17,400 bases of DNA from a virus. Its lineage: Duplodnaviria; Heunggongvirae; Uroviricota; Caudoviricetes. The notes beneath the pieces are model-generated. The model was not told the DNA's origin. It saw only the letters and a list, made by a program, of their open reading frames with translations, and made no database searches. The stretch lies in IMG/VR virus record IMGVR_UViG_2802429221_000010; one strand, given 5' to 3'. Below are positions 1-15,844 of the stretch, piece after piece. Both the position numbers and the translations under genes were made by a program. The number at the start of each line of letters is the position of its first letter. Position 1 is the stretch's first letter.

Positions 1-1215
1 ATGCTGCTTTCAGACCTTGCTATCAGACGCGCGAAGCCGAAAGAAAAGGCTTATACGCTCAATGACGGTAACGGGCTTTCGTTACTCATTGAGCCGAACG
101 GCTCGAAAGGGTGGCGACTACGTTACAGGTTTGCAGGAAAGCCCAAAATGTTGTCATTGGGCGTGTACCCTGATGTGTCTCTGTCTGATGCCAGGGCGGC
201 AAGGGATGAGGCTAAAAGGCTTCTTGCTGGTGGTATAAATCCAAGTGAGGCCAGAAAAGCCCAAAAGCGAGAACAGGCGAGCAAATTTGGCAATACTTTT
301 GAGGGTATCGCTCGCGAATGGTACGAAAAGCGGATCGACAGGTGGTCATCGTCATACGCCGAGGAAATGATCGAGACGTTTGAAAAAGACGTTTTTCCGT
401 ACATTGGCGGTAGGCCGATCGCAGAAATTAAGCCGATGGAATTGCTGGCGGTTCTTTCCCGTCTTAATGACCGTGGTGCGACTGAAAAATTGCGTAAGGT
501 TCGCCAGCGATGTGGCGAGGTGTTCCGGTACGCAATCATCACCGGACGCGCCGAATATAATCCAGCCCCTGACCTGGTGAGCGCATTTGCTCCACATAAA
601 AAAGAGCATTACGCCTATCTGAAGGCCGACGAACTGCCGGAATTTTTCCGCGTTTTTAATACGTACACCGGAAGCCAGATCGTCAAACTGGCAATGCGGC
701 TATTAATTCTGACAGGTGTCAGACCCGGGGAATTACGGCAGGCAGAATGGCGGGAGATCGATTTTGATAATCGTTTGTGGGAAGTGCCTAAAGAACGAAT
801 GAAGATGCGCCGTCCGCATTGTGTGCCATTACCAGAACAGGCGATAAAAATACTGGAGCAGTTAAAAAACATGACAGGCCAGTATCAGTTTATTTTCCCC
901 GGTCGTATTCACCACAGTAAGCCAATGAGTGAAATGGCGATGAATGTACTCATTCGTCGTATTGGCTACGCCGGGCGCGTCACTGGTCATGGATTCCGGC
1001 ACACCATGAGCACCATTTTGCATGAACAGGGCTATAACACTGCGTGGATAGAAACACAGCTTGCGCATGTTGATAAAAACTCAATTCGTGGCACGTACAA
1101 CCATGCGCAATATCTGGATGGTCGCCGGGAAATGCTCCAGTGGTACGCCGACTATATGGATTCGCTTGAGCATGGCGGAAATGTTGTTTACATAAAATCT
1201 GAAAAATTAAATTGA
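1..1215 (+). CDS. int: Tyrosine site-specific integrase, P4-type (phage integrase family)
   Basis: 404-aa ORF. N-terminal stretch LSDLAIRRAKPKEKAYTLNDGNGLSLLIEPNGSKGWRLRYRF matches the P4-type integrase arm-binding domain. C-terminal catalytic box GHGFRHT (H-x-x-R) plus downstream Tyr (TYNHAQY). ORF starts at window position 1, so the true start could lie upstream. Confidence 0.93.
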   Translation: MLLSDLAIRRAKPKEKAYTLNDGNGLSLLIEPNGSKGWRLRYRFAGKPKMLSLGVYPDVSLSDARAARDEAKRLLAGGINPSEARKAQKREQASKFGNTFEGIAREWYEKRIDRWSSSYAEEMIETFEKDVFPYIGGRPIAEIKPMELLAVLSRLNDRGATEKLRKVRQRCGEVFRYAIITGRAEYNPAPDLVSAFAPHKKEHYAYLKADELPEFFRVFNTYTGSQIVKLAMRLLILTGVRPGELRQAEWREIDFDNRLWEVPKERMKMRRPHCVPLPEQAIKILEQLKNMTGQYQFIFPGRIHHSKPMSEMAMNVLIRRIGYAGRVTGHGFRHTMSTILHEQGYNTAWIETQLAHVDKNSIRGTYNHAQYLDGRREMLQWYADYMDSLEHGGNVVYIKSEKLN

Positions 1216-1245
1216 TTACATTGATATTCTTATATAGGTGATATC

Positions 1246-2154
1246 ATGCTTCCTGAAAGATTGTTTTACACTCTGAATAAAGCAGCTTTTGAGATAAATA
1301 GAGATGTTTATGATTTATTTCACTATATATCAATCGGAATGGTTGATGTAGCAATAAATATAGACTTGTCAGATCTTATTGAAGAAGGAAGGGTCTCTGT
1401 TCGTGGTAAATTTAATAAAGAAATATTTACTAATACAAGAAGTAAAAAATTCAGACATCGCTCTAACTATGCAAAAATAAGTGAAGTTATTAGTTGCGAA
1501 TCTAATGGAAAGTTAAAACATAGAAAAGTCATTAAGGCATGTGGTCTTTTTTCTGTCCGAACATCCAATCTTTTTAAGATGGATGCTGATTTTGATAACG
1601 TGAAAGAATTTGTTGTTGATAGGCTATATCCAGTGAGGCTTCCATCTTTTACGCACTATAACTTGGAGGATTATAACCCACGAGTAATTTTAATTGATGG
1701 TGGTATAAATATTAAAACAAGCGATTTAGTTATAACTAAAAGTGAATTATTTTTGCTTAAAAATGGTGGAGTGACAATAAATTGGAGATTAAACCAAGTC
1801 AAATCATCTATGGATAAGTATCCCGATTTTATTAAAAGTAAAATGGATGGGGGAAATTCACGTAGTTGCGAAACAATTAACAAAATGGTGGGTAAGCCTA
1901 GAAATATCTATCGAAATGTTATTGTTGATGTAGCGAAAGCTACTCGTATTTCTTATCCGTGGAGCCATACGACATTAATTATCAATAAAATACACTCCTT
2001 GCTTTATTCTGTTGATGCTGTTAATACACCTAAAGTAGGTACAATTAGAAATATTCTTTGTTCAGAAGGAATTGGCAAAACAGGAGTGGAAACAAAAGAT
2101 GATTTCCGCTTGGTTATCCCAGAGGAGTACAGAAAATTATTTAAATTGAATTAA
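1246..2154 (+). CDS. Hypothetical protein, 302 aa, AT-rich orphan gene; function unknown (candidate cargo)
   Basis: Stop-bounded ORF with AGGTGA Shine-Dalgarno 4 nt before the ATG, 30 bp after the int stop. Visibly AT-rich (roughly one-third GC by eye) against about 50% GC in int and alpA. No motif recognised. Confidence 0.6.
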   Translation: MLPERLFYTLNKAAFEINRDVYDLFHYISIGMVDVAINIDLSDLIEEGRVSVRGKFNKEIFTNTRSKKFRHRSNYAKISEVISCESNGKLKHRKVIKACGLFSVRTSNLFKMDADFDNVKEFVVDRLYPVRLPSFTHYNLEDYNPRVILIDGGINIKTSDLVITKSELFLLKNGGVTINWRLNQVKSSMDKYPDFIKSKMDGGNSRSCETINKMVGKPRNIYRNVIVDVAKATRISYPWSHTTLIINKIHSLLYSVDAVNTPKVGTIRNILCSEGIGKTGVETKDDFRLVIPEEYRKLFKLN

Positions 2155-2252
2155 ATTGTATTTAATTTAAATTTTAATATTTAATTTAAAAAATACATCC
2201 TTCTCTTGTGTATATTCCAGAAACAGACTTTTATATGCATCAGGAGAAGTGT

Positions 2253-2453
2253 ATGGATAAGCAAAATTTAATTCGTATGCCAGAAACCATGCGCCGTACA
2301 GGCTATGGTAGGGCATGGATCTATAAACTCATTGCCCAAGGGCGTTTTCCTAAACCTGTAAAAATTGGCTCGCGAGCGATTGCTTTCGTTGAGAGTGAAA
2401 TTGATGAGTGGATTAATCAGCGTATTGCGGAATCACGCGGAACAGCTACCTGA
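2253..2453 (+). CDS. alpA: AlpA-family transcriptional regulator / excisionase-like HTH protein
   Basis: Translation LIRMPETMRRTGYGRAWIYKLI...IAFVESEIDEWINQR parallels E. coli AlpA (ILRLPAVIQKTGMARATIYDWL...VGWIEAEIDEWLSQR). AGGAGA Shine-Dalgarno precedes the ATG at 2253; the ORF track start at 2208 lacks one. Confidence 0.85.
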   Translation: MDKQNLIRMPETMRRTGYGRAWIYKLIAQGRFPKPVKIGSRAIAFVESEIDEWINQRIAESRGTAT

Positions 2454-3332: not shown

Positions 3333-4863
3333 CGCTCTGACCGTTACAAAAAGAGAAAGCGCCCCGTTGCCGGAGCGCCTTTGTGAACGAATAGCCTACT
3401 GCGCCATATTGCTTACTGTCTACGAGGCAGATTATAGCGTTGTGGTCGCACAGAGTGAAGGCGCTGATCACCGTTACTACAGCACGCCAGAAATGCAGAA
3501 TATTTTGCTGCAAAATGTCGTTGGTCACGCTGTCCGGAAAGCAAAAAATTTTGCTGGTAGCGCGACTGATGCGATTTTGTCAGGTCGCCAGGTGATGATC
3601 AATCTGATGTCTAATTTCGTTCTGGATAAAACAAAGGCGACCGCAGAGGGCCACCAGTGGGAAAGCTACACACTTGAACACATCGCCAACAATGCCAGAT
3701 TTGCGGCTGGTGGGCAATGTGATCAGTGTGCTGGCTTGCTGGTGGGCTATTCCTGCTCTTTAACATTGCCATGCCGCGATGTTTTCCAGGTATGCGACCC
3801 CATTTTTGTGCGCCTGTACTCTTTAAGGAATTTCTCAAGGATAAACGCACAGGGCGCGAATCTGTCTGACTCATATTCGTACGCTATCTTTCTGCGCTGT
3901 CTTTTCCGTGCCGGTGATGGTGTATTGGTTGATTCTTTGTTGGTCATTCTGTGTACCTGTAAAGCAATGCGCCGGAGTTCCTCACACCACGGCGATGATA
4001 GTTATTATTCTGATTCTTTGGCCTTGCGGCGCTGGAGTTCTTCACGTGCGACGGTGACGAGTTGCCCGATCTCCTCGACAGCTTTGACTCCGATTTTTTC
4101 CACCTGCGCCAGTGCATTGAGCGAAGAAACCAGGGGATTTTCTCCGCTTCCTTCTGCCTGGCGGCGGGCGATCTCACCACGCATGGCGGTTACTATGAAT
4201 CCGGCGTTGCTTTCGCCGTCCAGTTTTACGGATTCCATGCCTTCAAAAGCATCATGTGGGATACGAATTGAAATCTGTTTTGATTTGTCGTTGATAGTGT
4301 TTTTTGCCATGTGCATTCTCCTAAACAAAAGATGTGATTCAGTATACACAAAAAAGAATCACAAAAAATACTTGACCTGTGATTCAGTTAAATTTAATTT
4401 AAATCACACCTCAGTAAGAGGATGTAAACGACAACGCCCCGAACTGTTTGCGGCAGTAGCGGGGCGTCTAACCAAACCGTTAAATGAGGTAACGATTATG
4501 GCTGGGGCACAGCATACCCAAACTCACCCTAAATTTATATACACCTTCCTGGCGGTGCACCGTGATTGCATGGCTGACGGTAAAAACACTGTTCATGTAG
4601 CCGCCGATACGCTGGTTGATGCCTGCGAGATGCTCAATGACATGGGCTATATCTCGGCAACATGGAAAGGGCGCGAAGAAAACACGTTGTTTATTCAGAA
4701 ATGCGAAAACAATTTTATCTGGCGTTTTATCGCCCTGAGTACGGCACAACCGCGCGTGATTCACATCGAGGCCACCAGCGAACAGGAAGCACGCCAGCAA
4801 TCTCCTGATGGCTGCGTGATGGTATTCGCTGCCCATATTCGCCAGGAGGTGGAGCATGTGTAA
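3325..4863 (+). CDS. ORF of uncertain extent: translationally coupled start, plausible coding N-terminus, remainder probably not a real 512-aa protein
   Basis: ATG at 3325 overlaps the upstream stop (ccATGTGTAAcg). First roughly 120-160 codons have protein-like composition. From about 3800 the translation turns Ser/Cys/Arg-rich and low-complexity, runs antisense through the RHH-like gene (4005-4310) and its operator region, and ends in frame with the better-supported start at 4498. Confidence 0.25.
   Translation: MCNALTVTKRESAPLPERLCERIAYCAILLTVYEADYSVVVAQSEGADHRYYSTPEMQNILLQNVVGHAVRKAKNFAGSATDAILSGRQVMINLMSNFVLDKTKATAEGHQWESYTLEHIANNARFAAGGQCDQCAGLLVGYSCSLTLPCRDVFQVCDPIFVRLYSLRNFSRINAQGANLSDSYSYAIFLRCLFRAGDGVLVDSLLVILCTCKAMRRSSSHHGDDSYYSDSLALRRWSSSRATVTSCPISSTALTPIFSTCASALSEETRGFSPLPSAWRRAISPRMAVTMNPALLSPSSFTDSMPSKASCGIRIEICFDLSLIVFFAMCILLNKRCDSVYTKKNHKKYLTCDSVKFNLNHTSVRGCKRQRPELFAAVAGRLTKPLNEVTIMAGAQHTQTHPKFIYTFLAVHRDCMADGKNTVHVAADTLVDACEMLNDMGYISATWKGREENTLFIQKCENNFIWRFIALSTAQPRVIHIEATSEQEARQQSPDGCVMVFAAHIRQEVEHV
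4005..4310 (-). CDS. Ribbon-helix-helix-like small DNA-binding protein; candidate element repressor
   Basis: Translation MAKNTINDKSKQISIRIPHDAFEGMESVKLDGESNAGFIVTAMRGEI has a beta-strand then helix pattern typical of RHH (CopG/Arc) folds. AGGAGA sits 6 nt before the ATG at 4310 on the minus strand. Divergent from the + strand gene run, with palindromic repeats between. Confidence 0.6.
   Translation of the reverse strand: MAKNTINDKSKQISIRIPHDAFEGMESVKLDGESNAGFIVTAMRGEIARRQAEGSGENPLVSSLNALAQVEKIGVKAVEEIGQLVTVAREELQRRKAKESE
4330..4412. promoter_or_regulatory. Divergent promoter/operator region with TGTGATTC inverted repeats
   Basis: TGTGATTC (4333-4340) and GAATCACA (4355-4362) form one palindrome; TGTGATTCAG (4377-4386) and AATCACA (4402-4408) form a second. 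A TTGACC -35-like hexamer (4371-4376) lies between them, with a possible -10 TAATTT about 17 bp downstream. Confidence 0.45.
4498..4863 (+). CDS. Hypothetical protein, 121 aa
   Basis: ATG at 4498 preceded by GAGGT 7 nt upstream, located downstream of the promoter/operator region. Globular-looking composition. Stop overlaps the next gene's start (gcATGTGTAAtg). Confidence 0.5.
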   Translation: MAGAQHTQTHPKFIYTFLAVHRDCMADGKNTVHVAADTLVDACEMLNDMGYISATWKGREENTLFIQKCENNFIWRFIALSTAQPRVIHIEATSEQEARQQSPDGCVMVFAAHIRQEVEHV

Positions 4864-5861: not shown

Positions 5862-6152
5862 ATGAAAAAGAAAAATTCTGGCTTTACTGCCAGCGGTCTC
5901 TCTCGGCCTGAAATCAGACACGGAGATATTTACCGCGACACCATACGTGGGGGACGAGCGGTTATTTGTCATGTTACGCCAGAAAATATCACCTACCGCC
6001 GTGACGCTTATGAATATGACTGCATAATGCCGTGCCGTCAGTTTGAGCGTGATTTTATTCTGGTGGAGAACAAACAACAGGAAGCGACGAGACGTGCAGC
6101 CATGAATATTAAAAAAATCCGGGCAATGTTGGTTGCGGGAGGTAAGAAGTGA
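5862..6152 (+). CDS. Hypothetical protein, 96 aa
   Basis: Stop-bounded ORF immediately upstream of the primase; its TGA overlaps the primase GTG start (GTGA at 6149-6152). Confidence 0.5.
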   Translation: MKKKNSGFTASGLSRPEIRHGDIYRDTIRGGRAVICHVTPENITYRRDAYEYDCIMPCRQFERDFILVENKQQEATRRAAMNIKKIRAMLVAGGKK

Positions 6153-7954
6153 AAAACGCACCGAGTCTAAAATATCAGCCGAAGGATAAATTCACTGAGG
6201 TAATCATTTTTGCCGGGACGGATGCTTACGCCCATGCTCAACACTGGATTGAAAGTGAAGGACGAAAACACGGCGATAACGTGCCTCCTGTTTACCTGGG
6301 GCCAAAGCAACTGGCAGACCTGGCGAATATCCGCATTATTGACGAGAAACGCCGTTTTGCGCGTGTCTATATCGCGGGGGAGATAGAGCCAATCCAGATC
6401 AATACTATCGCTGAAAAGCTGGCGCTGGCTGGCGTACAGGACGCGAAATTATACAAAGGTATCACCGACCGGGAGCCGGAAAACTGGCGCGACTACCTGC
6501 AACGGATCCGCGAACAGGCAGAGAGTGGGGAAGTTTCAGCGATGAAATTAGCCACAAAAAATATTGACCTACCCAGGCCAGCACTAAATCAGATGGGAGC
6601 CAGCCAGAGAGGGGAAGTGTTACTTGAATATTATGGAAGAGCACTGGCTATAAATGATGATTCTGATGTAGTTCACCATTACAACGGAATTGTCTGGGTG
6701 CCTGTATCTGATAAGGAACTCCAGCGGTCTATGGCGAAGATTTTTATTGATGCTGGAATCAGTTATTCGCAAAACGCCATTAAATTTGCCGTAGACACAA
6801 TGAAATTGAGCCTGCCTGTTATGGGCGGGGCAGACAGGAATCTTATTGGATTCAGTAACGGGGTATTTGATACCCGGACGGGAAATTTTCGGGAGCATAA
6901 CAAAAATGACTGGTTGTTAAATGCCAGTGAATTACCGTTCAGCCCACCAGCAGAGGGGGAAACGCTGGCAACACATGCGCCGAATTTCTGGAAGTGGCTG
7001 CGTCGTTCGGTGGCAGATAATGATCGTAAAGCTGATCGCGTACTGGCGGCATTATTCATGGTACTGGCGAACCGGTACGACTGGCAGTTATTCCTTGAGG
7101 TAACAGGCCCAGGCGGAAGCGGTAAAAGTGTGATGGCTGAGATTTGTACCATGCTGGCGGGTAAGGCCAACACAGTATCGGCAAGCATGAAGGCTCTGGA
7201 AGACGCAAGGGAACGCGCGTTAGTAGTTGGCTTTTCGCTGATTATCATGCCGGATATGACTCGCTACGCTGGCGATGGTGCAGGAATTAAGGCAATTACT
7301 GGCGGCGACAAGGTGGCAATTGATCCGAAACATAAAGCCCCCTACTCCACACGTATTCCGGCAGTAGTGCTTGCGGTAAACAATAACGCCATGTCATTCA
7401 GTGACCGAAGCGGGGGGATCTCGCGTCGTAGGGTGATATTTAATTTCTCTGAGGTCGTACCGGAGAACGAACGCGATCCCATGCTGGCGGAAAAGATAGA
7501 AGGCGAACTGGCGGTAGTGATTCGCCATTTGCTAACACGATTTACCGACCAGGACGAAGCTAAAAGACTACTTTATGAGCAGCAAAAATCAGAAGAAGCG
7601 CTGTTGATAAAGCGCGAAGGTGATTCACTGGTGGACTTTTGCGGCTATCTGATGTCGTTGGTTAAATGTGAAGGAATGATGGTGGGCAATGCGGAAATAG
7701 TGCCATTTAGCCCGAGGCGATACCTGTATCATGCTTATTTAGCCTATATGTCAGCGCATGGCCTGGGAAAACCAGTATCACTGACACGCTTTGGTACTGA
7801 TATGCCAGGAGCTATGGCGGAATACGGAAAGGAGTATAAGCGGGCTAAATGCACTAAAGGCCCGGATAAAGGGCGAGTGATAACAAATGTTCTGTTAGAT
7901 GATGATGCTGATGGCTGGTTGCCAGCAGCTACAGGGATTAACGACAGAACATAA
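6149..7954 (+). CDS. Primase-helicase-type replication protein (P4 alpha / D5-like NTPase)
   Basis: 601-aa ORF with Walker A GPGGSGKS at 7106-7129 and a downstream hydrophobic strand ending in acidic residues (LIIMPDM). The N-terminal half is long enough for a primase-like domain. Immediately followed by an iteron array. Confidence 0.88.
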   Translation: MKNAPSLKYQPKDKFTEVIIFAGTDAYAHAQHWIESEGRKHGDNVPPVYLGPKQLADLANIRIIDEKRRFARVYIAGEIEPIQINTIAEKLALAGVQDAKLYKGITDREPENWRDYLQRIREQAESGEVSAMKLATKNIDLPRPALNQMGASQRGEVLLEYYGRALAINDDSDVVHHYNGIVWVPVSDKELQRSMAKIFIDAGISYSQNAIKFAVDTMKLSLPVMGGADRNLIGFSNGVFDTRTGNFREHNKNDWLLNASELPFSPPAEGETLATHAPNFWKWLRRSVADNDRKADRVLAALFMVLANRYDWQLFLEVTGPGGSGKSVMAEICTMLAGKANTVSASMKALEDARERALVVGFSLIIMPDMTRYAGDGAGIKAITGGDKVAIDPKHKAPYSTRIPAVVLAVNNNAMSFSDRSGGISRRRVIFNFSEVVPENERDPMLAEKIEGELAVVIRHLLTRFTDQDEAKRLLYEQQKSEEALLIKREGDSLVDFCGYLMSLVKCEGMMVGNAEIVPFSPRRYLYHAYLAYMSAHGLGKPVSLTRFGTDMPGAMAEYGKEYKRAKCTKGPDKGRVITNVLLDDDADGWLPAATGINDRT

Positions 7955-7981: not shown

Positions 7982-8319
7982 GGTAGACGGTTGGTAGACA
8001 GATTCACTTAACCCTCTACCAACCATCTACCAATTAATATTTTGAATTATAAAGATATTTTCAATGTGGTAGAGAGGTAGACAGTTATTTCTATATTCCT
8101 AAACCACGGGGGGTATATAAAAAACAGATAGTTAAGGGGGCATTTTTTAAATTTCTCTTTTAACTGTCTACACTGTCTACCATTTAGTAAAAATCATTAA
8201 TTATCAATGTATTAATGCGGTAGACCGTTGGTAGACAGTTTGCAGATTGTTTTTTTGTTATGTGTTAATAACATTAAATAAATCAATCAATTATATCGGT
8301 AGACAGTTGGTAGACAGTT
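7982..8319. repeat. Iteron array / putative replication origin of the element
   Basis: Six copies, in both orientations, of a doublet of GGTAGACAG-like units: ggtagacggttggtagacag (7982-8001), inverted copy (about 8012-8033), ggtagagaggtagacag (8069-8085), inverted copy (8163-8181), ggtagaccgttggtagacag (8219-8240), ggtagacagttggtagacag (8298-8319). Interspersed with AT-rich spacers, directly 3' of the primase-helicase gene. Confidence 0.7.
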
Positions 8320-8337
8320 GTAACGATGGGGCAAAGC

Positions 8338-8868
8338 ATGACTAAGCTGACCATTAACAGAAAACCAAAAGGTATTTACGGCACGCCGCAGAAAACGACG
8401 CAGGCGGCGCAGCAGCAGGATAAAACCACATCGGCGCATAAAGTGATGCCCGGTAACCAGAAAGCGCAGCAGAAGCCCACAGGGGCAACACCGTGGCGGC
8501 ATATGACCAAACGGCAGCGAAAAAACCGCAGACGCGTTAACCGCCTCACTGAGTTGTGGCCTGAATTATTCAGCCGGGAAGCACCGAAGCCGCTTAAGGT
8601 GGGGATATTCGACGACCTGATGCAGGATCTCGCCGTCAGGGGGCTGGCATTCGGGCCAGGGGCATTGCGTGCGACGCTGGCATCTTATGCGCAGTGTCCG
8701 CGCTATTACCGCGCCTTAATGGCTGGTGGGGTACGCTACGACCTGAAATGCCAGCCGTGCGGCGAGGTGACACCACAGGAACAACAGGACGCAGAAACGC
8801 GGCTGGTTGCGCTGAATGAGAAACGCAAACGTCAGCGTCGGGCAGCAAAGGAGAAAACAGGCGCATGA
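8338..8868 (+). CDS. ProQ/FinO-domain RNA-binding protein
   Basis: Segment PLKVGIFDDLMQDLAVRGL...LRATLASYAQCPRYYRALMAGGVRYDLKCQPCGEVTPQEQ aligns with E. coli ProQ N-terminal domain (PLKIGIFQDLVDRVAGEM...[39 protein letters not shown]). N-terminal half is basic and low-complexity. Start could be 8326 or 8338. Confidence 0.8.
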   Translation: MTKLTINRKPKGIYGTPQKTTQAAQQQDKTTSAHKVMPGNQKAQQKPTGATPWRHMTKRQRKNRRRVNRLTELWPELFSREAPKPLKVGIFDDLMQDLAVRGLAFGPGALRATLASYAQCPRYYRALMAGGVRYDLKCQPCGEVTPQEQQDAETRLVALNEKRKRQRRAAKEKTGA

Positions 8869-9152
8869 TTCACGACAGCAAAGCGGAAGCTCTGGAAGCG
8901 CGTGGTCTGTACCGGAGAGCGGCGGCGCGGTGGGCTGAGGTCATCATGCTGGCGAATGATGACAAGGCACGGGAACAGGCGGCAAAACGTCGCGCGGAAT
9001 GTATCCACAAGGCAGCACGCCCACCAGCAAGGCAGGATAATTTCGGGGAGATGCGCAAAACCATCAGCCGGGCACATGCCGGGATGGGATTACATCAGCC
9101 CAATGGTGAGGCATTCAGGAAATACCAAAAAAAGAACAATTGTAGTCAGTAA
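8865..9152 (+). CDS. PerC-family transcriptional regulator-like protein
   Basis: 95-aa ORF with ATGA overlap onto the upstream stop. N-terminal SKAEALEARGLYRRAAARWAEVI resembles the PerC/Pch signature as I recall it; not checked by search. Confidence 0.6.
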   Translation: MIHDSKAEALEARGLYRRAAARWAEVIMLANDDKAREQAAKRRAECIHKAARPPARQDNFGEMRKTISRAHAGMGLHQPNGEAFRKYQKKNNCSQ

Positions 9153-9286
9153 CAGAGGATGGGATTCTCTTGGTTTTTTGTTGATGCTTTCTGAGGAAAT
9201 CTACTACGTTGCTGAGCAGATGAATATTCAATTGCATCTGGGTTCCTGATAAGATTAATCTGAATATTTTCATTTGGAATAGGGAT

Positions 9287-10429
9287 ATGAATAAAACTTT
9301 AATTGCAACATTAGTCGGTATAGTAATGTTAACCGGATGTGGGCCAGAAGAGTTAACTCCAGAACAGAAACAGGAAGTAGCGGCTCTTAAAGCTGAACTG
9401 TCGCAAACGGAAGGTGAAATATCAGCAGCTAAGGAAGTTGACCAGCAGTTTTCTGGTGGGTTGATAAAAAATCTGACAACAGCAAGACTGGAAATATTAG
9501 GAACTAATAAAGCGCTTTTGGAACAGCGTATTAATGCTATTGAATCAGGCGCCAAAATTGATGTTGTTGTATCTGGAGTAAAACCTGATCCTGAGCTTGC
9601 GGCTTCAATTAAAACTGAAATTGACAGCTTAGATGCAAAAATCAACGAAGCCAAAGCTGATGCTCGTCAGTATAGTGGTGGTCTGATAAAGGTACTAAAA
9701 TTATCTACTGTTGCCACTGAAGAGCAGACTATGGCAATGTTGCAGCAAAAGTACCTCACAGCCAAGTATGGCCTCGCTGAAGTTAAGCTGGCATCAGTAC
9801 AAGATAATGACGCAAAAAACAGTACTGAAACGGAAGTAACAGCCAAAAATTCCCAAGATCAACTTCCTTTACTCCCGCCAGCGGATGGTCCGTTTGGCTT
9901 AGAAGCCGGTCTTACACAGAAAAACATCGAAGATATGATCGGTGCTAAGCTCAAGCCACTACCAGACAGTGTGAATCTGTATACTTCTGATAAATTACCG
10001 AAGCAAAACGCAGATTTTGAAATGTATGGTTTGTTGATCTCCCCGAAAGCTGGTTTATGTCAAATACGGGCTTTAGGAAAAAATATTGATACTGATAGCT
10101 ATGGATTGGCTCTTAAATCCAAGTTTGAAGAATTGAGTAATTCTTTAAGTTCTCTGTATGGAAAGGCTGATACTACAGACTTTTTGCTGGCTGGTTCAAT
10201 TTGGAAAGATCCTCAGGACTGGATGAGGGGGCTAAACAAAAAAGAACGCTTCTTATCTGCCACATGGAAAGGAACAAAAGAAATACCATTAAAAAACAAT
10301 ATTGATACTATCTCTATTGAGGCCAGAGCGAACAATTCCACTCAGGGATATGTCTATCTGCAGTACTCATTTACAAATGACGAAATTTGTCAGGCAGAAA
10401 TTGAAGGGGCGAAAAAAAGTTCCCTTTAA
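9287..10429 (+). CDS. Lipoprotein, 380 aa, with internally repeated coiled-coil-like N-terminal region; function unknown
   Basis: Signal peptide with lipobox MNKTLIATLVGIVMLTGC. Two copies of the motif (Q/R)Q(F/Y)SGGLIK(N/V)L within helical, charged segments. AGGGA Shine-Dalgarno. Lower GC than the replication module. Confidence 0.8.
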   Translation: MNKTLIATLVGIVMLTGCGPEELTPEQKQEVAALKAELSQTEGEISAAKEVDQQFSGGLIKNLTTARLEILGTNKALLEQRINAIESGAKIDVVVSGVKPDPELAASIKTEIDSLDAKINEAKADARQYSGGLIKVLKLSTVATEEQTMAMLQQKYLTAKYGLAEVKLASVQDNDAKNSTETEVTAKNSQDQLPLLPPADGPFGLEAGLTQKNIEDMIGAKLKPLPDSVNLYTSDKLPKQNADFEMYGLLISPKAGLCQIRALGKNIDTDSYGLALKSKFEELSNSLSSLYGKADTTDFLLAGSIWKDPQDWMRGLNKKERFLSATWKGTKEIPLKNNIDTISIEARANNSTQGYVYLQYSFTNDEICQAEIEGAKKSSL

Positions 10430-10442
10430 ACAATCCGTGCAA

Positions 10443-10468
10443 AGCCCCTTAGTAAGGGGCTTTTATAT
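10443..10468 (+). terminator. Rho-independent terminator
   Basis: GC stem GCCCCTT / AAGGGGC with a 3-nt loop, followed by TTTTATATAT, 14 nt after the lipoprotein stop. Confidence 0.6.
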
Positions 10469-10494
10469 ATTAATGTCCAACGGGGGGGGATTAG

Positions 10495-10818
10495 ATGAAA
10501 GATAATCTAGAAAAACTAATTGAAAATACTTTAAAAGATATTCTATTAGCTAATGCTGCTCTAACATTCATTTTTGCAATACCAATGGCTATTATCAGTA
10601 GGCATGGGATGGGCATCACAATCTGGTTTATAACTGTGCTCATTGCACCTGCTCTGTGTGCAGTAGGTGCATGGCTTGTATCTCGAACATTCGGCCATGC
10701 TGAGGAGTTTTTTCATCGTCGGTGGGCTAAGCGAATTTATGTTTTTTATACTCTTGCGGCTGCCGAGTTTTTGCTTGTGTACTCAATCGCGCAAATAATG
10801 AAAAATCTGATGAAATAA
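10495..10818 (+). CDS. Small inner-membrane protein, 107 aa, two or three predicted transmembrane helices
   Basis: GGGGGGGA Shine-Dalgarno. Hydrophobic stretches ALTFIFAIPMAIIS, ITIWFITVLIAPALCAVGAWLV and IYVFYTLAAAEFLLVYSIA. Confidence 0.7.
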   Translation: MKDNLEKLIENTLKDILLANAALTFIFAIPMAIISRHGMGITIWFITVLIAPALCAVGAWLVSRTFGHAEEFFHRRWAKRIYVFYTLAAAEFLLVYSIAQIMKNLMK

Positions 10819-11096
10819 TTAACAAGTTATTATCATGGGGTTTGTGGCTGTTAACCTGCAGTGAGGCGACAATCGTGTATTTATAAAAACTTCCCCTTTT
10901 CACTCCCCGCTGTTTCTTCTGCTATTGCCTTTATGTTTGCATGCACCAACATCTGCCATACTTTTGCAGAAAAATCAGAGCATTCAGTGCCGAAGGTTGG
11001 TTTATTGATGCTTTTCGTTTCATTTATTGCAATTGTCTCTGGTATCATTTCAATTTGTGCAATAATTGCAATTATTGTCATTCAGAAGGGATCATC

Positions 11097-11264
11097 ATGA
11101 AAAATCACGGAGTAAAGCCAGTTTTACTTTCCCGGAGGCAGATCGAAGCCCTGCAACGCATCCAGGACGAAGAGCGTCAGAAATCTGTGCTTGGTGTGGC
11201 ACCGTCGATTCATGTTATCGCTCGGCAACTGATGGATAAGGCACTTAAAGAGGTGAGACTGTGA
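11097..11264 (+). CDS. Small putative DNA-binding protein, 55 aa, RHH-like
   Basis: AAGGGA 6 nt before the ATG at 11097. Sequence VKPVLLSRRQIEALQRIQDEERQ fits a strand-helix RHH pattern. The longer track ORF starting at 10941 has an implausible Cys/Phe-rich N-terminus. Confidence 0.45.
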   Translation: MKNHGVKPVLLSRRQIEALQRIQDEERQKSVLGVAPSIHVIARQLMDKALKEVRL

Positions 11265-11331
11265 AATTAAATATCAGAGTGGATAAACCCAGCTATGGCA
11301 GAAAAAAGAGAACAGCGAGGCATTCAGGGCG

Positions 11332-11532
11332 TTGCTGGTGGAAAATCTTCAGCACCGGTTCAGTGGAGAGTTGCCTGATGCTCTAGGGAAGAAACTGGAA
11401 TCCCTGACGGTGGAAATTGGCGATTATGGCTTTGTTGATGTTGAAAGCACGACTGCCAACACAGAAATCGTAAAACAGGTCGTCAATGATGTAATGAAAA
11501 CCACGCTTAGCCAGCCATCCTGGCGCAACTGA
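11332..11532 (+). CDS. Small hypothetical protein, about 64-66 aa, non-ATG start
   Basis: Open frame with only TTG (11332) or GTG (11338) starts. Acidic, globular-looking translation. Followed by hairpin AGGGGC...GCCCCT at about 11541-11566. Confidence 0.35.
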   Translation: MLVENLQHRFSGELPDALGKKLESLTVEIGDYGFVDVESTTANTEIVKQVVNDVMKTTLSQPSWRN

Positions 11533-11632
11533 ATCAGTAAGGGGCGGTTATTGCCCCTTTCCTCCATACCCACAACGCATTCCCTTTCCGCATGAAATTA
11601 TTTTTTTATCGTATATGCATGAGGTGAGCTAC

Positions 11633-12160
11633 ATGTTGATGAGTAAAGCCGAATACGCCAAATACAAAGGCGTAAGCCGCCAGACAGTTTACGACTGGAT
11701 CGAGAAAGGCGAAGTGATCATGTCTGGCAAAAAAATTGATGTGGATGCGACAGATCAGCGGAACAGCCCACCAGCACAGGGGAAAGACACCGTTTCTGAA
11801 ATGTGGCCAGAGAGAACGCTGGAAATGACGTGGGGCGAGTTCTGGAAAGCAGTTAAGGCCAGAGACGGTAAAATCCCTGCACCAGTAACGGACGATGACA
11901 TACGGCAGCGTGTGCTGAATGCAGCCGGGGAATTAGGCTGGGAAGTGCACTTTCTTGATGATGGTGCTATCTGCCTTGAGGATGATGAAGGACAGCATTA
12001 CTTTGAACAATACAATTTGCGGGGTAATGCCTGGCTGGCAATTCATATGCTGCGTTGTGAACTATGCTATGTTGCCAGCGATTGTCCCGATGAACAGGAC
12101 ACATGGAGTGAGGCAGGACTAAACGCCCTGGCTGAATGGGAAAAATCAGGCCATCAATGA
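11633..12160 (+). CDS. HTH-domain protein, 175 aa; excisionase/terminase-small-subunit-like N-terminus
   Basis: GAGGTGAG Shine-Dalgarno before the ATG at 11633. N-terminus SKAEYAKYKGVSRQTVYDWIEKGEV is an HTH of the type seen in lambda Nu1 and excisionase-like proteins. Immediately followed by a direct-repeat array. Confidence 0.7.
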   Translation: MLMSKAEYAKYKGVSRQTVYDWIEKGEVIMSGKKIDVDATDQRNSPPAQGKDTVSEMWPERTLEMTWGEFWKAVKARDGKIPAPVTDDDIRQRVLNAAGELGWEVHFLDDGAICLEDDEGQHYFEQYNLRGNAWLAIHMLRCELCYVASDCPDEQDTWSEAGLNALAEWEKSGHQ

Positions 12161-12164
12161 CCTC

Positions 12165-12458
12165 AAAAAGTGTCAAGTTGAGCAGCTTGCCAGGTTGACA
12201 CTTTACACTCTGAACGCGAAAAAGTGTCAACCTTGCTGGAAGCCGCGCCATTACTGGCCTTGTACCATATTCACCACGTCAAAAAACCGAAAAAATCGCG
12301 AAAAGTGTCAAGTTGCCATGCTTAGAAATGCCAGGGATGGTTAAGTTTTGTTAAGGTTTTTCCCGAAAAAGTGTCAAGTGTGTCAATCTGCGATATTAAG
12401 ATTTATTAAGGCCTTAAGCCGGAAAGTGTCAACCAGCCCCCTAAGATTTCCTAAGGTG
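12165..12458. repeat. Array of AAAGTGTCAA direct/inverted repeats interleaved with TTAAGNTTT-N-TTAAGG repeats; putative protein-binding region
   Basis: AAAAGTGTCAAG at 12165-12177; inverted TTGACACTT at 12195-12203 (9-bp arms, 18-bp spacer); further copies near 12219-12231, 12300-12313, 12366-12380 (double) and 12422-12433. Second family: ggttaagttttgttaaggtt (about 12339-12358), attaagatttattaaggcc (about 12394-12412), cctaagatttcctaaggtg (about 12440-12458). Confidence 0.6.
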
Positions 12459-12464
12459 TAAATC

Positions 12465-12647
12465 ATGACCATCACCGAAGCCGATATGCTGGAGATGATC
12501 CGCAGCATTGCCGGAGTCAAACAACCAGCAAGCAAAATTAACAGGTGTTCAGCGCCTGTTTCCGTTGTGCTGCAACAGGAATGCCACCAGCGGCGGGAAA
12601 ACGAAAAGGCGTACCAATGGACGAAGCCAAACAAGTTACGGCGTTAA
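12465..12647 (+). CDS. Small hypothetical protein, 60 aa
   Basis: AAGGTG 7 nt before the ATG, directly downstream of the repeat array, followed by a hairpin. Confidence 0.4.
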   Translation: MTITEADMLEMIRSIAGVKQPASKINRCSAPVSVVLQQECHQRRENEKAYQWTKPNKLRR

Positions 12648-12655
12648 TTAGGAAT

Positions 12656-12680
12656 ACGGGCTGAGATAGCCCGCATTTTG
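12656..12680. terminator. Hairpin, possible bidirectional terminator between convergent genes
   Basis: CGGGCT-gagat-AGCCCG stem-loop followed by ATTTTG on the + strand, between the + strand ORF ending 12647 and the - strand ORF ending 12682. Confidence 0.4.
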
Positions 12681-12681
12681 C

Positions 12682-12939
12682 TCACAGCTTGTTATACATT
12701 TTTCCAGCGAAGTCATGAACCGCCTGAGGAATATCCGACGGCGTACCTAGCATTGTTGGCGCATCGGAAACAAAGAACATGATCGCTTCTTTGATTTCTT
12801 CGAAAGATGGGGTAGGGGTAATGCGCTTGAGATTTGAAACCGCCCGTCGGAACTCCGCCGTATCCATTGGATGCCTGCTAAACCACGTTGGACGAGAAGC
12901 CCAACATTTTACTGCTTCTTTCACCTTAGTGTTCATCAT
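12682..12939 (-). CDS. Hypothetical protein, 85 aa
   Basis: Minus-strand ORF with AAGGAAAA Shine-Dalgarno just upstream of ATGATG. Convergent with the + strand genes; no family recognised. Confidence 0.5.
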   Translation of the reverse strand: MMNTKVKEAVKCWASRPTWFSRHPMDTAEFRRAVSNLKRITPTPSFEEIKEAIMFFVSDAPTMLGTPSDIPQAVHDFAGKMYNKL

Positions 12940-13424
12940 TTTTCCTTTTGCTTATTACCATACAAAGCATGTGGAAAGAGAAGATTAACATGGAAAATAT
13001 GGAGTTGGTGAGCAAATGAAAGGTACTGGTAGCCTGTCGACATCTATCAGCATGATGATGTGAGGCCGTATCAGTGGCGGAAACCGAACAGGCTGCGACG
13101 GTGAGCGGAGCGTTACGGTAAGCCAACAGCCAAGCCAAACATTAAGTCTACAGGTAAGGTTGTTTTTTTGCAGGTGGCATTAATTTGTATGTTGGTTTAA
13201 GGAGCATTTTTATTGAAACCCGCCTTAATTGGTCGTTTTTGTATGTCATGTGGTTCTAAGATAACCGCTAAGTTAAGCAACAGATGTGGTTGGGGGCGAG
13301 CAGGTTAACAGTCTATCTATCAAATTTAATGTTTATTATTTGATAATTAGTGGTTTTGTATCCAGTTTTGTGAGAGATTGTTAATGCATTTAACATCTGA
13401 TGGTTTTTACTTAAGGGTTACATA

Positions 13425-14480: not shown

Positions 14481-14481
14481 T

Positions 14482-15411: not shown

Positions 15412-15844
15412 TATTTTTTATATAGGGTTTTATATTTTTGTAAAATCCTATAATCCATAAAATGAATATTATATTTAATAATGTCTTGATTAGGCTAACG
15501 GCATAATTATGATAGGTGATTTTGTTATAATAAATTTTTTGAACAAAAATAGTTGTTTACCCCAACTCCTCAAACACCAAAATAATTTACTGCAGATCAC
15601 TGTACGTTGCCTTCATATCATTTTGGGCCACATTCTTGATATTCGTCAGATTAGGTATACTGGTAAGACTATTTGTTGATGGCGGCGAGTCACAACCGTT
15701 CCCTAGGTCTACCACTCAACTACAGAGGCTACTACGGTAGCCACTACGATTAACTACGCGATCCCGATATGGTGATTCCTATATCGGGTTATCTGTGCTC
15801 ATCCATCAGCTTGATCACGGATAACAGGGGATGTGTAATTCCCA

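What the first reader, a model, noticed from the sequence alone, without database searches (positions are those of the whole stretch)
8326..9152. Element-encoded ProQ/FinO-domain RNA chaperone next to a PerC-like regulator
The ProQ/FinO domain is clearly readable and is preceded by a basic, Gln/Lys-rich tail. It is coupled by ATGA overlap to a small PerC-like protein. Mobile-element FinO-family proteins can act on host or element RNAs, and PerC homologues on prophages are known to cross-regulate virulence loci in E. coli (established knowledge). Their pairing on a satellite-like element suggests regulatory crosstalk with the host.
Basis: partly seen in the sequence, partly recalled or inferred. 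Interest (0 to 1): 0.45.

Follow-up and report, generated by a model that had tools for sequence, protein, structure and literature searches.

The report
Satellite ProQ/FinO–PerC gene pair
A small phage-dependent mobile island in Escherichia carries, right after its replication origin, an RNA-binding protein gene and a small regulator gene; both calls are correct, but databases already name the pair in hundreds of genomes and nobody has tested what it does.

Summary
Window 8338(8326)-8868 encodes a FinO-domain protein (Pfam PF04352, E=2.9e-22). Its predicted fold matches only FinO-family structures, and the Arg/Tyr/Arg RNA-binding triad is kept. A disordered basic Gln/Thr/Lys tail precedes the domain. 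Window 8865-9152 encodes a full-length PerC-family protein (PF06069, E=3.8e-32), and the two genes overlap by ATGA.

The host element is a PICI-type satellite: integrase, AlpA, an RgdR-like DUF4222 protein, a D5-type primase and an iteron origin. It sits at tRNA-Thr (thrW).

The pair is not singular. RefSeq already labels both genes, and 239 of 5,426 complete E. coli genomes carry the contiguous pair. In Escherichia, Citrobacter and Salmonella satellites the ProQ-like gene sits next to a PerC-like gene just downstream of primase and origin, often with an SSB gene. This holds across three primase/origin types and down to 39%/53% identity. PerC-like genes also occur without ProQ, and an orphan ProQ clade exists in other islands.

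Published homologues (PchE, EcCIMP1_025) alter host flagella, curli and LEE expression rather than activating LEE. No RNA partner could be identified.

Verdict: a new member of a known kind. The conserved post-origin module is a modest new point. Interest 0.3.

The parts
7982..8318 (.). Replication origin of the satellite. It holds 11 copies of the iteron GGTAGACNGT in both orientations around an AT-rich core (about 8032-8160). The last iteron pair ends 7 nt before ATG 8326 and 19 nt before ATG 8338.
   Evidence: There are 11 of 15 window-wide matches in 337 nt, against 1.45 expected in the whole window. GC falls to 0.32-0.35. [quoted passage not shown]
8338..8868 (+). ProQ/FinO-domain protein gene (176 aa, 20 kDa, pI 10.6). 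An alternative upstream start at 8326 would add MGQS.
   Evidence: Pfam PF04352 E=2.9e-22. PDB profile hits to ProQ, FinO, RocC and NMB1681. AF2 model plus Foldseek. RefSeq start and name. dN/dS 0.18-0.32 against homologues.
8338..8508 (+). N-terminal tail, residues 1-57. It has a conserved M-T-K-L-T-I-N-R-K-P-K-G motif followed by a disordered Gln/Thr/Lys-rich linker.
   Evidence: Composition and pI 10.8. pLDDT below 50 for residues 11-49. The motif is invariant in the 14-sequence alignment and kept in the Salmonella homologue at 39% identity.
8509..8556 (+). Highly basic helix, residues 58-73 (KRQRKNRRRVNRLTEL, 8 K/R in 16). It aligns with the N-terminal helix region of FinO.
   Evidence: Helix H58-73 in the AF2 model. 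The NCBIfam FinO model aligns residues 33-176 to FinO positions 44-179. Composition.
8557..8772 (+). FinO-domain core, residues 74-145, holding R111, Y123 and R133. These are the equivalents of E. coli ProQ R58, Y70 and R80. The PCGE motif is at residues 140-143.
   Evidence: Residue mapping by pairwise alignment. These positions are invariant or nearly invariant in A1. [quoted passage not shown]
8773..8865 (+). Long basic C-terminal helix, residues 146-176. There is no ProQ-type linker or Tudor-like C-terminal domain.
   Evidence: H146-174 in the AF2 model. The protein ends at residue 176. The NCBIfam ProQ equivalog scores 53 bits against a cut-off of 127.
8865..8868 (+). ATGA overlap. The start codon of the PerC-like gene overlaps the stop codon of the ProQ-like gene.
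   Evidence: Sequence read directly. The overlap is not conserved: there is a 2-nt gap in E. coli 042, a 14-nt overlap in Salmonella, and the gene order is inverted in L009.
8865..9152 (+). PerC-family protein gene (95 aa, 10.8 kDa, pI 10.2), of the PchE-like subgroup.
   Evidence: Pfam PF06069 E=3.8e-32, full length. 52% identical to Sakai PchE and 49% to EcCIMP1_025. dN/dS 0.15-0.37. The AF2 model has three confident helices in residues 5-51 and no significant PDB fold match.
9287..10429 (+). 380-aa lipoprotein-like gene of unknown function. It follows ProQ-PerC in the same block and probably completes the operon.
   Evidence: It is co-linear with ProQ-PerC in L001, L013, L018 and L011 at 93-100% identity. 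No convincing terminator lies between 9152 and 9287. There is no Pfam, PHROG or PADLOC family and only weak lipoprotein-signal hits.
10441..10463 (+). Strong intrinsic-terminator-like hairpin (10-bp stem, then UUUUAUAU). It is the probable 3' end of the ProQ-PerC-LP380 transcript.
   Evidence: Terminator scan. The fold has energy -14.5 kcal/mol and z=-3.25.
6149..7954 (+). Primase/helicase of the satellite (D5_N, DUF5906 and Pox_D5 domains). It is preceded by the overlapping DUF4222/RgdR-like gene (5862-6152).
   Evidence: Pfam and NCBIfam hits. 45% identity of the DUF4222 protein to Sakai RgdR/ECs1581.
1..2453 (+). Left arm of the satellite: tyrosine integrase (1-1215), an unknown 302-aa gene, and the AlpA activator (2208-2453).
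   Evidence: Pfam hits. In the 99.8%-identical E. coli E189 locus the integrase lies 166 nt from tRNA-Thr, next to proA.

Best explanation
The two genes form a conserved 'post-origin' module of enterobacterial PICI-type phage satellites.

Shown here:
1. The first gene encodes a true FinO-domain protein with a FinO-like layout: a conserved N-terminal peptide, a disordered basic linker, a very basic helix, the FinO domain with the Arg/Tyr/Arg RNA-binding triad, and a C-terminal helix. It has no ProQ-type C-terminal domain.
2. The second gene encodes a PchE-like PerC-family protein.
3. Both are under purifying selection.
4. In satellites they sit side by side directly downstream of primase and origin. 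This holds whichever primase/origin type the satellite uses.

Inferred:
1. The pair, together with the 380-aa gene that follows, is transcribed from a promoter at the right edge of the origin. This is by analogy with the ECs1586-SSB-pchE polycistron of satellite Sp7.
2. The FinO-domain protein binds hairpin-plus-3'-tail RNAs such as terminators and antisense RNAs. Its basic N-terminal region speeds RNA-RNA pairing or protects the RNA, as FinO does with FinP/traJ and FopA with Inc/repZ. The RNA comes from the satellite or its helper phage, with possible spill-over to host RNAs.
3. The PerC-like protein is a small helical regulator without a recognisable DNA-binding fold. It probably works through a protein partner to change transcription, including host flagellar, curli and LEE genes in strains that carry them.

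Together the module gives the satellite one post-transcriptional regulator and one transcriptional regulator.
For: Identity of the two proteins: Pfam, NCBIfam, PDB profile and fold evidence; conserved R111/Y123/R133; dN/dS of 0.15-0.37.

Module conservation. ProQ lies next to PerC just after primase and origin in these loci:
- window, E. coli E189 and E. ruysiae;
- O104:H4 2011C-3493, which has a different primase, with 97% homology starting exactly at 8325;
- E. coli 042 and E. albertii, as SSB-ProQ-PerC, in 042 on a minimal element of about 7.5 kb;
- Citrobacter;
- L032-34;
- L009, with the order inverted;
- Salmonella, with a third primase type, different iterons, and ProQ at 39% and PerC at 53% identity.
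The commonest variant keeps a truncated PerC after an inserted Ant-like gene. The contiguous pair is in 239 of 5,426 complete E. coli genomes.

Operon inference. There is no good terminator between perC and the next gene, and a strong one at 10441-10463. In Sp7, 5'RACE places the pchE transcript start 10 nt upstream of the first post-origin gene (PMC7369912), and that position is right after the last iterons.

Precedents for function. FopA binds Inc/repZ (PMC7491321). FinO/ProQ proteins bind terminator-type hairpins (PMC9977716). PchE and EcCIMP1_025 have host phenotypes (PMC7369912, PMC11773190).
Against: No RNA partner was found. Rfam gave nothing relevant. The only well-formed promoter-plus-terminator sRNA candidate in the window (about 3424-3347, minus strand) belongs to the antA arm and is absent from other ProQ-bearing satellites.

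No consensus promoter scores well just upstream of 8338.

The two genes do not co-diverge. Relative to the window, ProQ/PerC identity is 79%/62% in E. coli 042 but 57%/75% in Citrobacter. They therefore recombine independently, which argues against a tight specific partnership.

PerC-like genes often occur without ProQ: Sp7, EcCIMP1, Klebsiella and L027. A ProQ clade at 59-68% identity stands alone in YfjJ/AlpA-type islands.

Nothing here shows expression, RNA binding or any phenotype.
Confidence: 0.55

Rival explanations
1. The pair is accessory cargo whose main job is to rewire the host, mainly virulence, motility and adhesion. The PerC-like protein would act on host promoters and the FinO-domain protein on host sRNAs and mRNAs.
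For: PchE over-expression changes flhDC, csgD, ler, eae and motility (PMC7369912). EcCIMP1_025 silences LEE1-lux (PMC11773190). Fillol-Salom et al. list PerC variants as PICI virulence accessory genes (PMC6092414). Chromosomal ProQ and plasmid FopA also bind host RNAs (PMC7491321, PMC9977716). pchE promoter fusions are active in ordinary growth.
Against: The module sits in the core, next to primase, origin and SSB, and not in the variable cargo region at 12.6-17.4 kb, where the defence genes lie. It is kept in a minimal satellite of about 7.5 kb that carries nothing else. The element occurs in horse, poultry, pig, human and water isolates, and LEE carriage of those hosts was not checked here. 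The published host phenotypes come from over-expression.
Confidence: 0.25
2. The FinO-domain protein is a replication accessory factor. It would work at the origin together with, or in place of, SSB, by binding structured single-stranded nucleic acid such as primer RNA, R-loops or iteron hairpins. It would not be a riboregulator.
For: The gene is always the first or second one after the origin. SSB is its usual neighbour, and in Sp7 the slot directly upstream of pchE holds SSB (ECs1587), preceded by an 83-aa gene (ECs1586), and no ProQ gene. The window's element lacks SSB and has ProQ directly after the origin. The inverted iterons at 7982-8031 can form a 16-bp hairpin (z=-4.2). FopA's main target controls plasmid replication (PMC7491321). 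Vibrio episomal satellites list a ProQ/FinO-like gene alongside parA and repA (PMC13230959).
Against: The same ProQ-PerC block at 97% identity is combined with unrelated primase/origin sets, and the family spans three primase types and different iterons. It is therefore not origin-specific. Many satellites have both SSB and ProQ. Orphan copies exist with no replication genes nearby. No member of the FinO family is known to act on DNA replication forks (my own knowledge).
Confidence: 0.12
3. The module is a weapon against the helper phage or competing elements. It would bind and mis-regulate helper-phage antisense or terminator RNAs, or helper transcription through PerC, to favour the satellite.
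For: Satellites commonly place interference genes downstream of the replication module (PMC6092414). ProQ-type proteins bind many prophage RNAs (PMC9977716). The commonest variant has an Ant-like anti-repressor fragment inserted between ProQ and PerC.
Against: There is no similarity to any PADLOC defence model. No helper phage is known for this element. The evidence is positional only.
Confidence: 0.08

Closest known systems
FinO of F-like conjugative plasmids (PDB 1DVO)
   Same: It is a FinO domain encoded on a mobile element and preceded by a basic N-terminal extension and helix. The NCBIfam FinO model aligns to residues 33-176. The profile hits 1dvo at 1.9e-16, and Foldseek gives rmsd 1.9 A over 102 columns.
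   Different: Identity is only about 28-33%. The score of 61 bits is far below the FinO subfamily cut-off of 136. There is no tra operon and no FinP/traJ pair. The N-terminal motif MTKLTINRKPKG is specific to the satellite subfamily.
Chromosomal ProQ of E. coli and Salmonella (PDB 5NB9)
   Same: This is the best sequence match among solved structures (1.8e-19). R58, Y70 and R80 and the PCGE motif are conserved as R111, Y123, R133 and P140-E143.
   Different: There is no linker and no Tudor-like C-terminal domain. The domain is C-terminal to a 73-residue basic extension rather than at the N-terminus. The ProQ equivalog model scores 53 bits against a cut-off of 127. The gene lies on a satellite, not in the core genome.
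FopA (YafB) of IncI plasmid pCol1B9
   Same: It is described as a FinO-domain protein on a mobile element that lacks the FinO N-terminal domain and the ProQ C-terminal domain and has an N-terminal region with two stretches of positive charge. Its main ligand is an element-encoded antisense RNA that controls replication (PMC7491321). This is the best functional analogy.
   Different: No sequence comparison was possible because the FopA record is not in the collections. No Inc/repZ-type antisense system is visible next to the satellite primase.
PchE of O157:H7 satellite Sp7 / OI-51 / EcCIEDL933
   Same: It is 52% identical to the window's PerC-like protein. It occupies the same place after primase and origin in a PICI-type element that also has an RgdR/DUF4222 gene upstream of the primase. 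It is transcribed as a polycistron that starts at the origin edge (PMC7369912).
   Different: Its upstream partner is SSB (PF00436), not a FinO-domain protein. Sp7 is a capsid-forming satellite, whereas the window's element has no virion genes.
EcCIMP1_025 of satellite EcCIMP1 (E. coli MP1)
   Same: It is 49% identical. Its element is integrated at the same tRNA-Thr/proA site with a near-identical integrase type. It is an experimentally mobilised PICI (PMC11773190).
   Different: EcCIMP1 has no ProQ-like gene. Its PerC-like gene lies far from the primase, near the right end and on the same strand as the primase. It represses LEE1 rather than activating it.
PerC of the EPEC EAF plasmid and PchA/B/C of EHEC lambdoid prophages
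   Same: They belong to the same Pfam family, PF06069.
   Different: These are the LEE1 activators. PICI-type homologues are reported to have no effect on LEE1 or to repress it (PMC11773190). No NCBIfam model, PchABC-specific or otherwise, matches the window protein.
ProQ/FinO-like genes listed in other satellites (E. cloacae PICI AVS0889; Vibrio cf-PISP)
   Same: These are annotation-level reports of a ProQ/FinO-like gene, and separately a PerC gene, in PICIs (PMC13612085), and of a ProQ/FinO-like gene in episomal satellites (PMC13230959).
   Different: Those papers treat the genes as separate accessory or maintenance genes. Neither paper describes a ProQ-PerC(-SSB) post-origin module, and neither tests function.

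Membership tests
ProQ/FinO family (PF04352) | Sequence match to the family model above the curated threshold | tested here: met
   79.1 bits against a gathering score of 27, E=2.9e-22, model positions 5-108/109.
ProQ/FinO family (PF04352) | FinO-domain fold | tested here: met
   The AF2 model has pLDDT 86-95 over residues 60-170. The top 26 Foldseek PDB hits are all NMB1681, RocC, FinO or Lpp1663, with TM-scores to target of 0.6-0.84.
ProQ/FinO family (PF04352) | Conserved RNA-binding residues (ProQ R58, Y70, R80) | tested here: met
   R111, Y123 and R133 align to them and are invariant or nearly invariant in the subfamily. The importance of the Arg and Tyr is stated in PMC7491321.
ProQ/FinO family (PF04352) | Binds structured RNA (hairpin with 3' tail) and has a cognate RNA ligand | not testable with these tools
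   No ligand could be nominated. Rfam gave nothing relevant, and the candidate sRNA is not linked to the gene.
FinO proper (NCBIfam NF010317) | Score above the subfamily cut-off, and association with a tra/FinP system | tested here: not met
   61.1 bits against a cut-off of 136. There are no conjugation genes in the window.
ProQ proper (NCBIfam NF003434 equivalog) | Score above the cut-off, and a linker plus Tudor-like C-terminal domain | tested here: not met
   53.4 bits against a cut-off of 127. Only model positions 6-120 of 205 are matched, and the protein ends 31 residues after the domain.
PerC family (PF06069) | Full-length match above the curated threshold | tested here: met
   110.8 bits against 22.6, model positions 1-89/90. 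Invariant D4, A7, E8, G14, Y16, R17, R18, A19, R22, R36, C46, P54 and R85 are shared with homologues from six genera.
PerC family (PF06069) | Activates the LEE1 promoter (the property of PerC and PchABC) | not testable with these tools
   The nearest characterised relatives do not activate it. PchE has no effect on LEE1 fusions, and EcCIMP1_025 represses (PMC11773190).
Gram-negative PICI-type phage satellite | Integrase at the left end next to a specific att site | tested here: met
   A tyrosine integrase lies at 1-1215. In the 99.8%-identical E189 locus it abuts tRNA-Thr/proA. The right att repeat is not inside the window.
Gram-negative PICI-type phage satellite | AlpA activator, then primase/rep, then an origin made of two iteron sets flanking an AT-rich stretch | tested here: met
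   AlpA at 2208-2453 and primase at 6149-7954. Eleven iterons lie at 7982-8318 around the AT-rich core. The layout follows PMC6092414.
Gram-negative PICI-type phage satellite | No phage structural or lysis genes, and small size | tested here: inconclusive
   No virion or lysis domains are found in the 17.4-kb window. The right boundary lies outside the window, so total size is unknown.
Gram-negative PICI-type phage satellite | Induction and packaging by a helper phage | not testable with these tools
   No helper is known. No Rpp, TerS or capsid-redirecting gene was recognised.

The most novel reading that the evidence does not exclude
The FinO-domain protein and the PerC-like protein could be two halves of one satellite-specific control device. 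The RNA chaperone, through its conserved N-terminal MTKLTINRKPKG peptide and basic helix, would handle an as yet unseen satellite or helper-phage RNA. The PerC-like protein would turn that signal into a change in transcription. Together they would set the timing of satellite gene expression, or of helper exploitation, after the origin fires. That would be the first riboregulatory circuit described for PICI-type satellites and the first native function assigned to the PerC family.
Probability: 0.12. Interest if true: 0.6.

Novelty: new member of a known kind. Interest (0 to 1): 0.3.

Why it matters
FinO-domain proteins on plasmids (FinO, FopA) each control their element through a dedicated antisense RNA. 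Phage satellites have no described equivalent in enterobacteria.

This gene is common. DNA matches to one or both genes are found in 1,872 of 5,426 complete E. coli genomes, and the commonest protein variant is recorded in more than 4,000 assembly blocks. It sits in a fixed place next to the satellite origin. It is therefore a cheap and well-defined target for RIP/CLIP-seq.

The PerC family has been studied only as a virulence activator. Its conserved position in satellites of commensals suggests that its ancestral job belongs to the mobile element.

Neither point is surprising to specialists, and the annotation is already public. The value lies in pointing out a testable module rather than in a discovery.

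Tried and rejected
1. Rfam scan of the whole window at E<=1. It returned only two chance-level hits (Plastid-psbM on the iteron palindrome, and HOLDH) and no C4/CI-type or other known sRNA.

2. Search for an RNA partner with promoter and terminator scans. The two minus-strand 'terminators' inside the ProQ gene (8546-8530 and 8390-8377) are weak 5-bp stems. The T run of the first is the reverse complement of Lys/Asn/Arg codons for the conserved basic helix. Their count does not exceed the shuffles (2 against 1.5). I rejected them.

3. The best candidate sRNA is a promoter TTCACT-17-TATAAT at 3459-3431 with an 11-bp terminator at 3381-3356 on the minus strand (z=-2.4). It is conserved and unannotated in 392 E. 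coli genomes. However, it travels with the antA arm and is absent from the 042, Salmonella and L003-type satellites that carry ProQ. I rejected it as a dedicated partner.

4. Retrieval of FopA (pCol1B9 HE654725, R64 AP005147). The records are not held. tblastn against plasmids, even at E<=5, matched only 54 Escherichia plasmid records. The absence of FopA hits is therefore uninformative.

5. A scan of one genome per species gave only two loci, E. ruysiae and E. albertii. The close subfamily is confined to Escherichia and near relatives. The full-library HMMER search found 1,488 FinO-family clusters, of which only 7 reach E<=1e-30.

6. Fold search for the PerC-like model. There was no significant PDB match (best E=2.4, TPR-like helical hairpins), so no mechanism could be read from the fold.

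7. I asked whether Rpp (the PICI packaging redirector) or RgdR might be the ProQ- or PerC-like protein. They are not. Rpp is a distinct 144-aa protein (PMC6739421). RgdR corresponds to the DUF4222 gene upstream of the primase.

8. I asked whether EcCICFT073 c1499 and c1500, whose deletion has no effect on transfer, are PerC-like. They are capsid and decoration homologues.
Full report

Yes. The window has an ORF at 8326-8868 (+) and an overlapping ORF at 8865-9152 (+).

Pfam assigns the first to PF04352 ProQ/FinO (E=2.9e-22, 79 bits against a cut-off of 27, nearly the whole model). It assigns the second to PF06069 PerC (E=3.8e-32, 111 bits against 22.6, model positions 1-89 of 90). The ATGA start/stop overlap at 8865-8868 is visible in the sequence.

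A profile of the ProQ-like family hits solved ProQ, FinO, RocC and NMB1681 at 1e-19 to 1e-10. The AlphaFold2 model is confident over the domain (pLDDT 86-95). Its top 26 Foldseek matches in the PDB are all FinO-family structures, and nothing else reaches significance.

The 'basic Gln/Lys-rich tail' is also real. Residues 1-57 hold 10 K/R, 8 Q, 10 T and a single acidic residue (pI 10.8) and are predicted disordered. A helix with 8 K/R in 16 residues follows.

One correction concerns the start. The likelier start is ATG 8338, not 8326. RefSeq uses it. All homologues begin M[TS]xLTI[NS]RKPKG. A GGGG lies at Shine-Dalgarno distance upstream.

**2. What is the element?**

The window is the left and central part of a PICI-type phage satellite. 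Its gene order is:
- tyrosine integrase (1-1215)
- AlpA (2208-2453)
- AntA-type anti-repressor
- divergent YlcI
- Icd-like gene
- several small ORFs
- a DUF4222 protein (5862-6152)
- a D5_N/DUF5906/Pox_D5 primase-helicase (6149-7954)

The 370-nt gap between the primase and the ProQ-like gene contains 11 copies of the iteron GGTAGACNGT in both orientations around an AT-rich core. Only 1.45 matches are expected in the whole window, and GC falls to 0.32. This is the origin layout described for Gram-negative PICIs (PMC6092414).

A locus 99.8% identical in E. coli E189 places the integrase next to tRNA-Thr (thrW) and proA. The experimentally mobilised satellite EcCIMP1 uses the same site (PMC11773190).

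The DUF4222 protein is 45% identical to RgdR/ECs1581 of O157.

To the right of about 12.6 kb lies variable cargo. It includes an NsnA-like GmrSD_N protein and a RiboL-PSP HEPN protein. This stretch has no match in 5,426 complete E. coli genomes. The conserved backbone is closest to E. ruysiae.

**3. How singular is the pair?**

It is not singular. RefSeq already names the two genes 'ProQ/FINO family protein' and 'PerC family transcriptional regulator'. At DNA level, one or both genes are found in 1,872 of 5,426 complete E. coli genomes, and the contiguous pair in 239.

I sampled protein-level relatives and their neighbourhoods. In primase-bearing satellites the arrangements were:
- window, E189 and E. 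ruysiae: primase(D5)-ori-ProQ-PerC-380aa
- O104:H4 2011C-3493: a different primase and origin joined to the same ProQ-PerC-380aa block, with 97% homology beginning exactly at window position 8325
- E. coli 042 and E. albertii: primase(DUF927)-SSB-ProQ-PerC. In E. coli 042 it lies on a minimal element of about 7.5 kb at tRNA-Pro
- L032-34: the same arrangement as 042
- Citrobacter: SSB-ProQ-PerC-380aa
- L009: primase(D5)-SSB-PerC-ProQ, with the order inverted
- Salmonella: primase(Zn-ribbon/Toprim/DUF927), an origin with different iterons, ProQ at 39% identity and PerC at 53% identity with a 14-nt overlap. This variant is recorded in more than 400 contigs
- the commonest variant, in more than 4,000 assembly blocks: SSB-ProQ, then an inserted 138-aa Ant-like gene, then a truncated PerC ORF

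So within satellites, a PerC gene or its remnant is always adjacent to the ProQ-like gene in my sample. The converse does not hold. PerC-like genes occur without ProQ in Sp7/OI-51 (SSB-PchE), EcCIMP1, Klebsiella and elsewhere. A ProQ clade at 59-68% identity stands alone in YfjJ/AlpA-type islands.

The two genes do not co-diverge. ProQ/PerC identities relative to the window are 79%/62% in 042 and 57%/75% in Citrobacter. Adjacency is conserved but specific pairing is not. Both genes are under purifying selection (dN/dS 0.15-0.37).

**4. What kind of FinO-domain protein is it?**

The residues that align with E. coli ProQ R58, Y70 and R80 are R111, Y123 and R133. They are conserved, as is the PCGE motif. 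[quoted passage not shown]

The architecture is FinO-like rather than ProQ-like. The domain is preceded by a basic extension and helix, and the NCBIfam FinO model aligns to residues 33-176. It is followed only by one long helix, with no linker or Tudor-like domain.

It is nevertheless neither FinO nor ProQ proper. It scores 61 bits against 136 for FinO and 53 bits against 127 for ProQ.

The conserved N-terminal peptide MTKLTINRKPKG persists at 39% identity. It marks a satellite-associated subfamily. Across 1.84 billion representative proteins, 1,488 clusters match the FinO family but only 7 match at E<=1e-30.

**5. What about the PerC-like protein?**

It is 52% identical to PchE and 49% to EcCIMP1_025. 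Its model shows three confident helices in residues 5-51 and a weaker fourth. It has no significant structural neighbour, and the best, non-significant, matches are TPR-like hairpins. The fold gives no sign of a classical DNA-binding domain, but this is weak negative evidence.

Published work on the nearest homologues matters here. PchE over-expression raises flhDC and motility and lowers csgD, ler and eae (PMC7369912). EcCIMP1_025 silences LEE1-lux in C. rodentium, and the PerC-like proteins of EcCIEDL933 and EcCICFT073 had no effect on LEE1 fusions (PMC11773190). PICI-borne PerC variants were already listed as accessory genes in PMC6092414.

**6. How it most likely works**

Shown: identity, fold, conserved binding residues, selection, and position in a conserved post-origin module that is independent of primase/origin type.

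Inferred (a), the transcription unit. The genes form an operon with the 380-aa lipoprotein-like gene. No convincing terminator lies between 9152 and 9287, and a strong one lies at 10441-10463. In Sp7, 5'RACE maps the start of the ECs1586-SSB-pchE polycistron 10 nt upstream of the first post-origin gene. That site lies directly after the last iterons. By analogy, a promoter at the right edge of the window's origin is likely, possibly overlapped by the iteron pair at 8298-8318. No consensus promoter scores well there.

Inferred (b), the ProQ-like protein. It binds hairpin-plus-3'-tail RNAs, and its basic N-terminal region promotes RNA pairing or protection. FinO does this with FinP/traJ and FopA with Inc/repZ (PMC7491321, PMC9977716).

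Inferred (c), the PerC-like protein. It alters transcription, probably through a protein partner.

I could not nominate the RNA. Rfam found nothing relevant. The one well-formed sRNA candidate (minus strand, about 3424-3347) is tied to the antA arm and not to ProQ.

**7. Rivals**

- Host rewiring as the primary role. Over-expression phenotypes of homologues support it. The core position of the module, and its retention in a minimal satellite, weaken it.
- A replication-accessory role at the origin. Constant proximity to the origin and SSB suggests it, as does the Sp7 arrangement, where the post-origin slot upstream of pchE holds SSB and no ProQ gene. Free recombination of the module with unrelated primase/origin sets, and the orphan copies, argue against it.
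- Interference with the helper phage. The evidence is positional only, and there is no PADLOC match.

**8. Comparison with what is known, and novelty**

The genes are correctly filed as a ProQ/FinO-family protein and a PerC-family protein on a PICI-type satellite.

All three facts are already in public annotation or literature. PerC on Gram-negative PICIs appears in PMC6092414 and PMC11773190. ProQ/FinO-like genes in satellites are mentioned in PMC13612085 and PMC13230959.

What I did not find described is the recurrent (SSB)-ProQ-PerC post-origin module and the satellite-specific N-terminal motif. My full-text searches found no paper that tests the satellite FinO-domain protein.

This is a new member of a known kind, with a modest comparative point added. 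Interest 0.3.

Noticed in passing
window 7982-8318: Satellite replication origin. It holds 11 GGTAGACNGT iterons in both orientations around an AT-rich core. The inverted iterons at 7982-8031 can fold into a 16-bp hairpin (z=-4.2) right after the primase stop codon. The last iteron pair abuts the ProQ-like start.
   Followed up: yes
window 5862-6152: The DUF4222 gene overlapping the primase start is a homologue of RgdR/ECs1581, the O157 'prophage regulator' of type III secretion and motility (45% identity). It has HGD where RgdR has its functionally important RGD motif. DUF4222 precedes the primase in nearly all the related satellites sampled.
   Followed up: partly
window about 3347-3459, minus strand: Candidate sRNA of about 78 nt. 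It has the best sigma-70-like promoter in the window (TTCACT-17-TATAAT, 3459-3431) followed by an 11-bp GC-rich terminator (3381-3356) and a U-run. It is unannotated in RefSeq and conserved in 392 complete E. coli genomes. It travels with the antA/Bro arm and not with the ProQ-like gene.
   Followed up: partly
window 13425-15411: Probable anti-phage cargo. One gene is an NsnA-like GmrSD_N/DUF262 protein (PADLOC NsnA, E=7e-65). The next encodes a RiboL-PSP-type HEPN protein. In E189 the same position holds a methyltransferase, a DUF262 protein and a HEPN-like nuclease, so this is a variable defence hotspot.
   Followed up: partly
window 9287-10429 and 10441-10463: A 380-aa lipoprotein-like protein with no family assignment is co-inherited with ProQ-PerC (93-100% identity in E. 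coli, E. ruysiae and Citrobacter). A strong terminator follows it. It probably belongs to the same operon, and its function is unknown.
   Followed up: partly
window 8325 (joint); L018 (E. coli O104:H4 2011C-3493): The 2011 outbreak strain carries the same ProQ-PerC-380aa block at 97% identity over window 8325-12434, but with a different primase and origin. The recombination joint falls exactly at the origin/ProQ boundary.
   Followed up: yes
L003-L008, locus coordinates 6479-7129: This is the most abundant ProQ-like variant, found in more than 4,000 assembly blocks. A 138-aa gene with an Ant-like region (PHROG 63) overlaps the ProQ stop. The PerC gene downstream is reduced to a 49-aa C-terminal ORF that gene callers miss.
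   Followed up: partly
window 12600-17400: The right third of the window has no match in 5,426 complete E. coli genomes. It ends in a 468-aa (cut off) ToxR/CadC-like regulator on the minus strand (Trans_reg_C domain). The att repeat of tRNA-Thr is not in the window, so the element's right end lies beyond it or differs. The source may be a non-coli Escherichia.
   Followed up: partly
window 3325-4863: The 512-aa ORF in the mechanical list is not a gene. RefSeq annotates only an Icd-like protein in its last 121 codons (about 4498-4863). The rest overlaps minus-strand genes (YlcI and a 66-aa ORF) and non-coding DNA.
   Followed up: no
L016, L017, L028-L031: A clade of ProQ-like genes at 59-68% identity sits alone, without primase or PerC, in islands that carry YagK/YfjJ, AlpA, UCP030791 and DUF1187 genes (CP4-57/CP4-6-like). 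In strain Sanji the copy is frameshifted and lies next to a resistance region.
   Followed up: no
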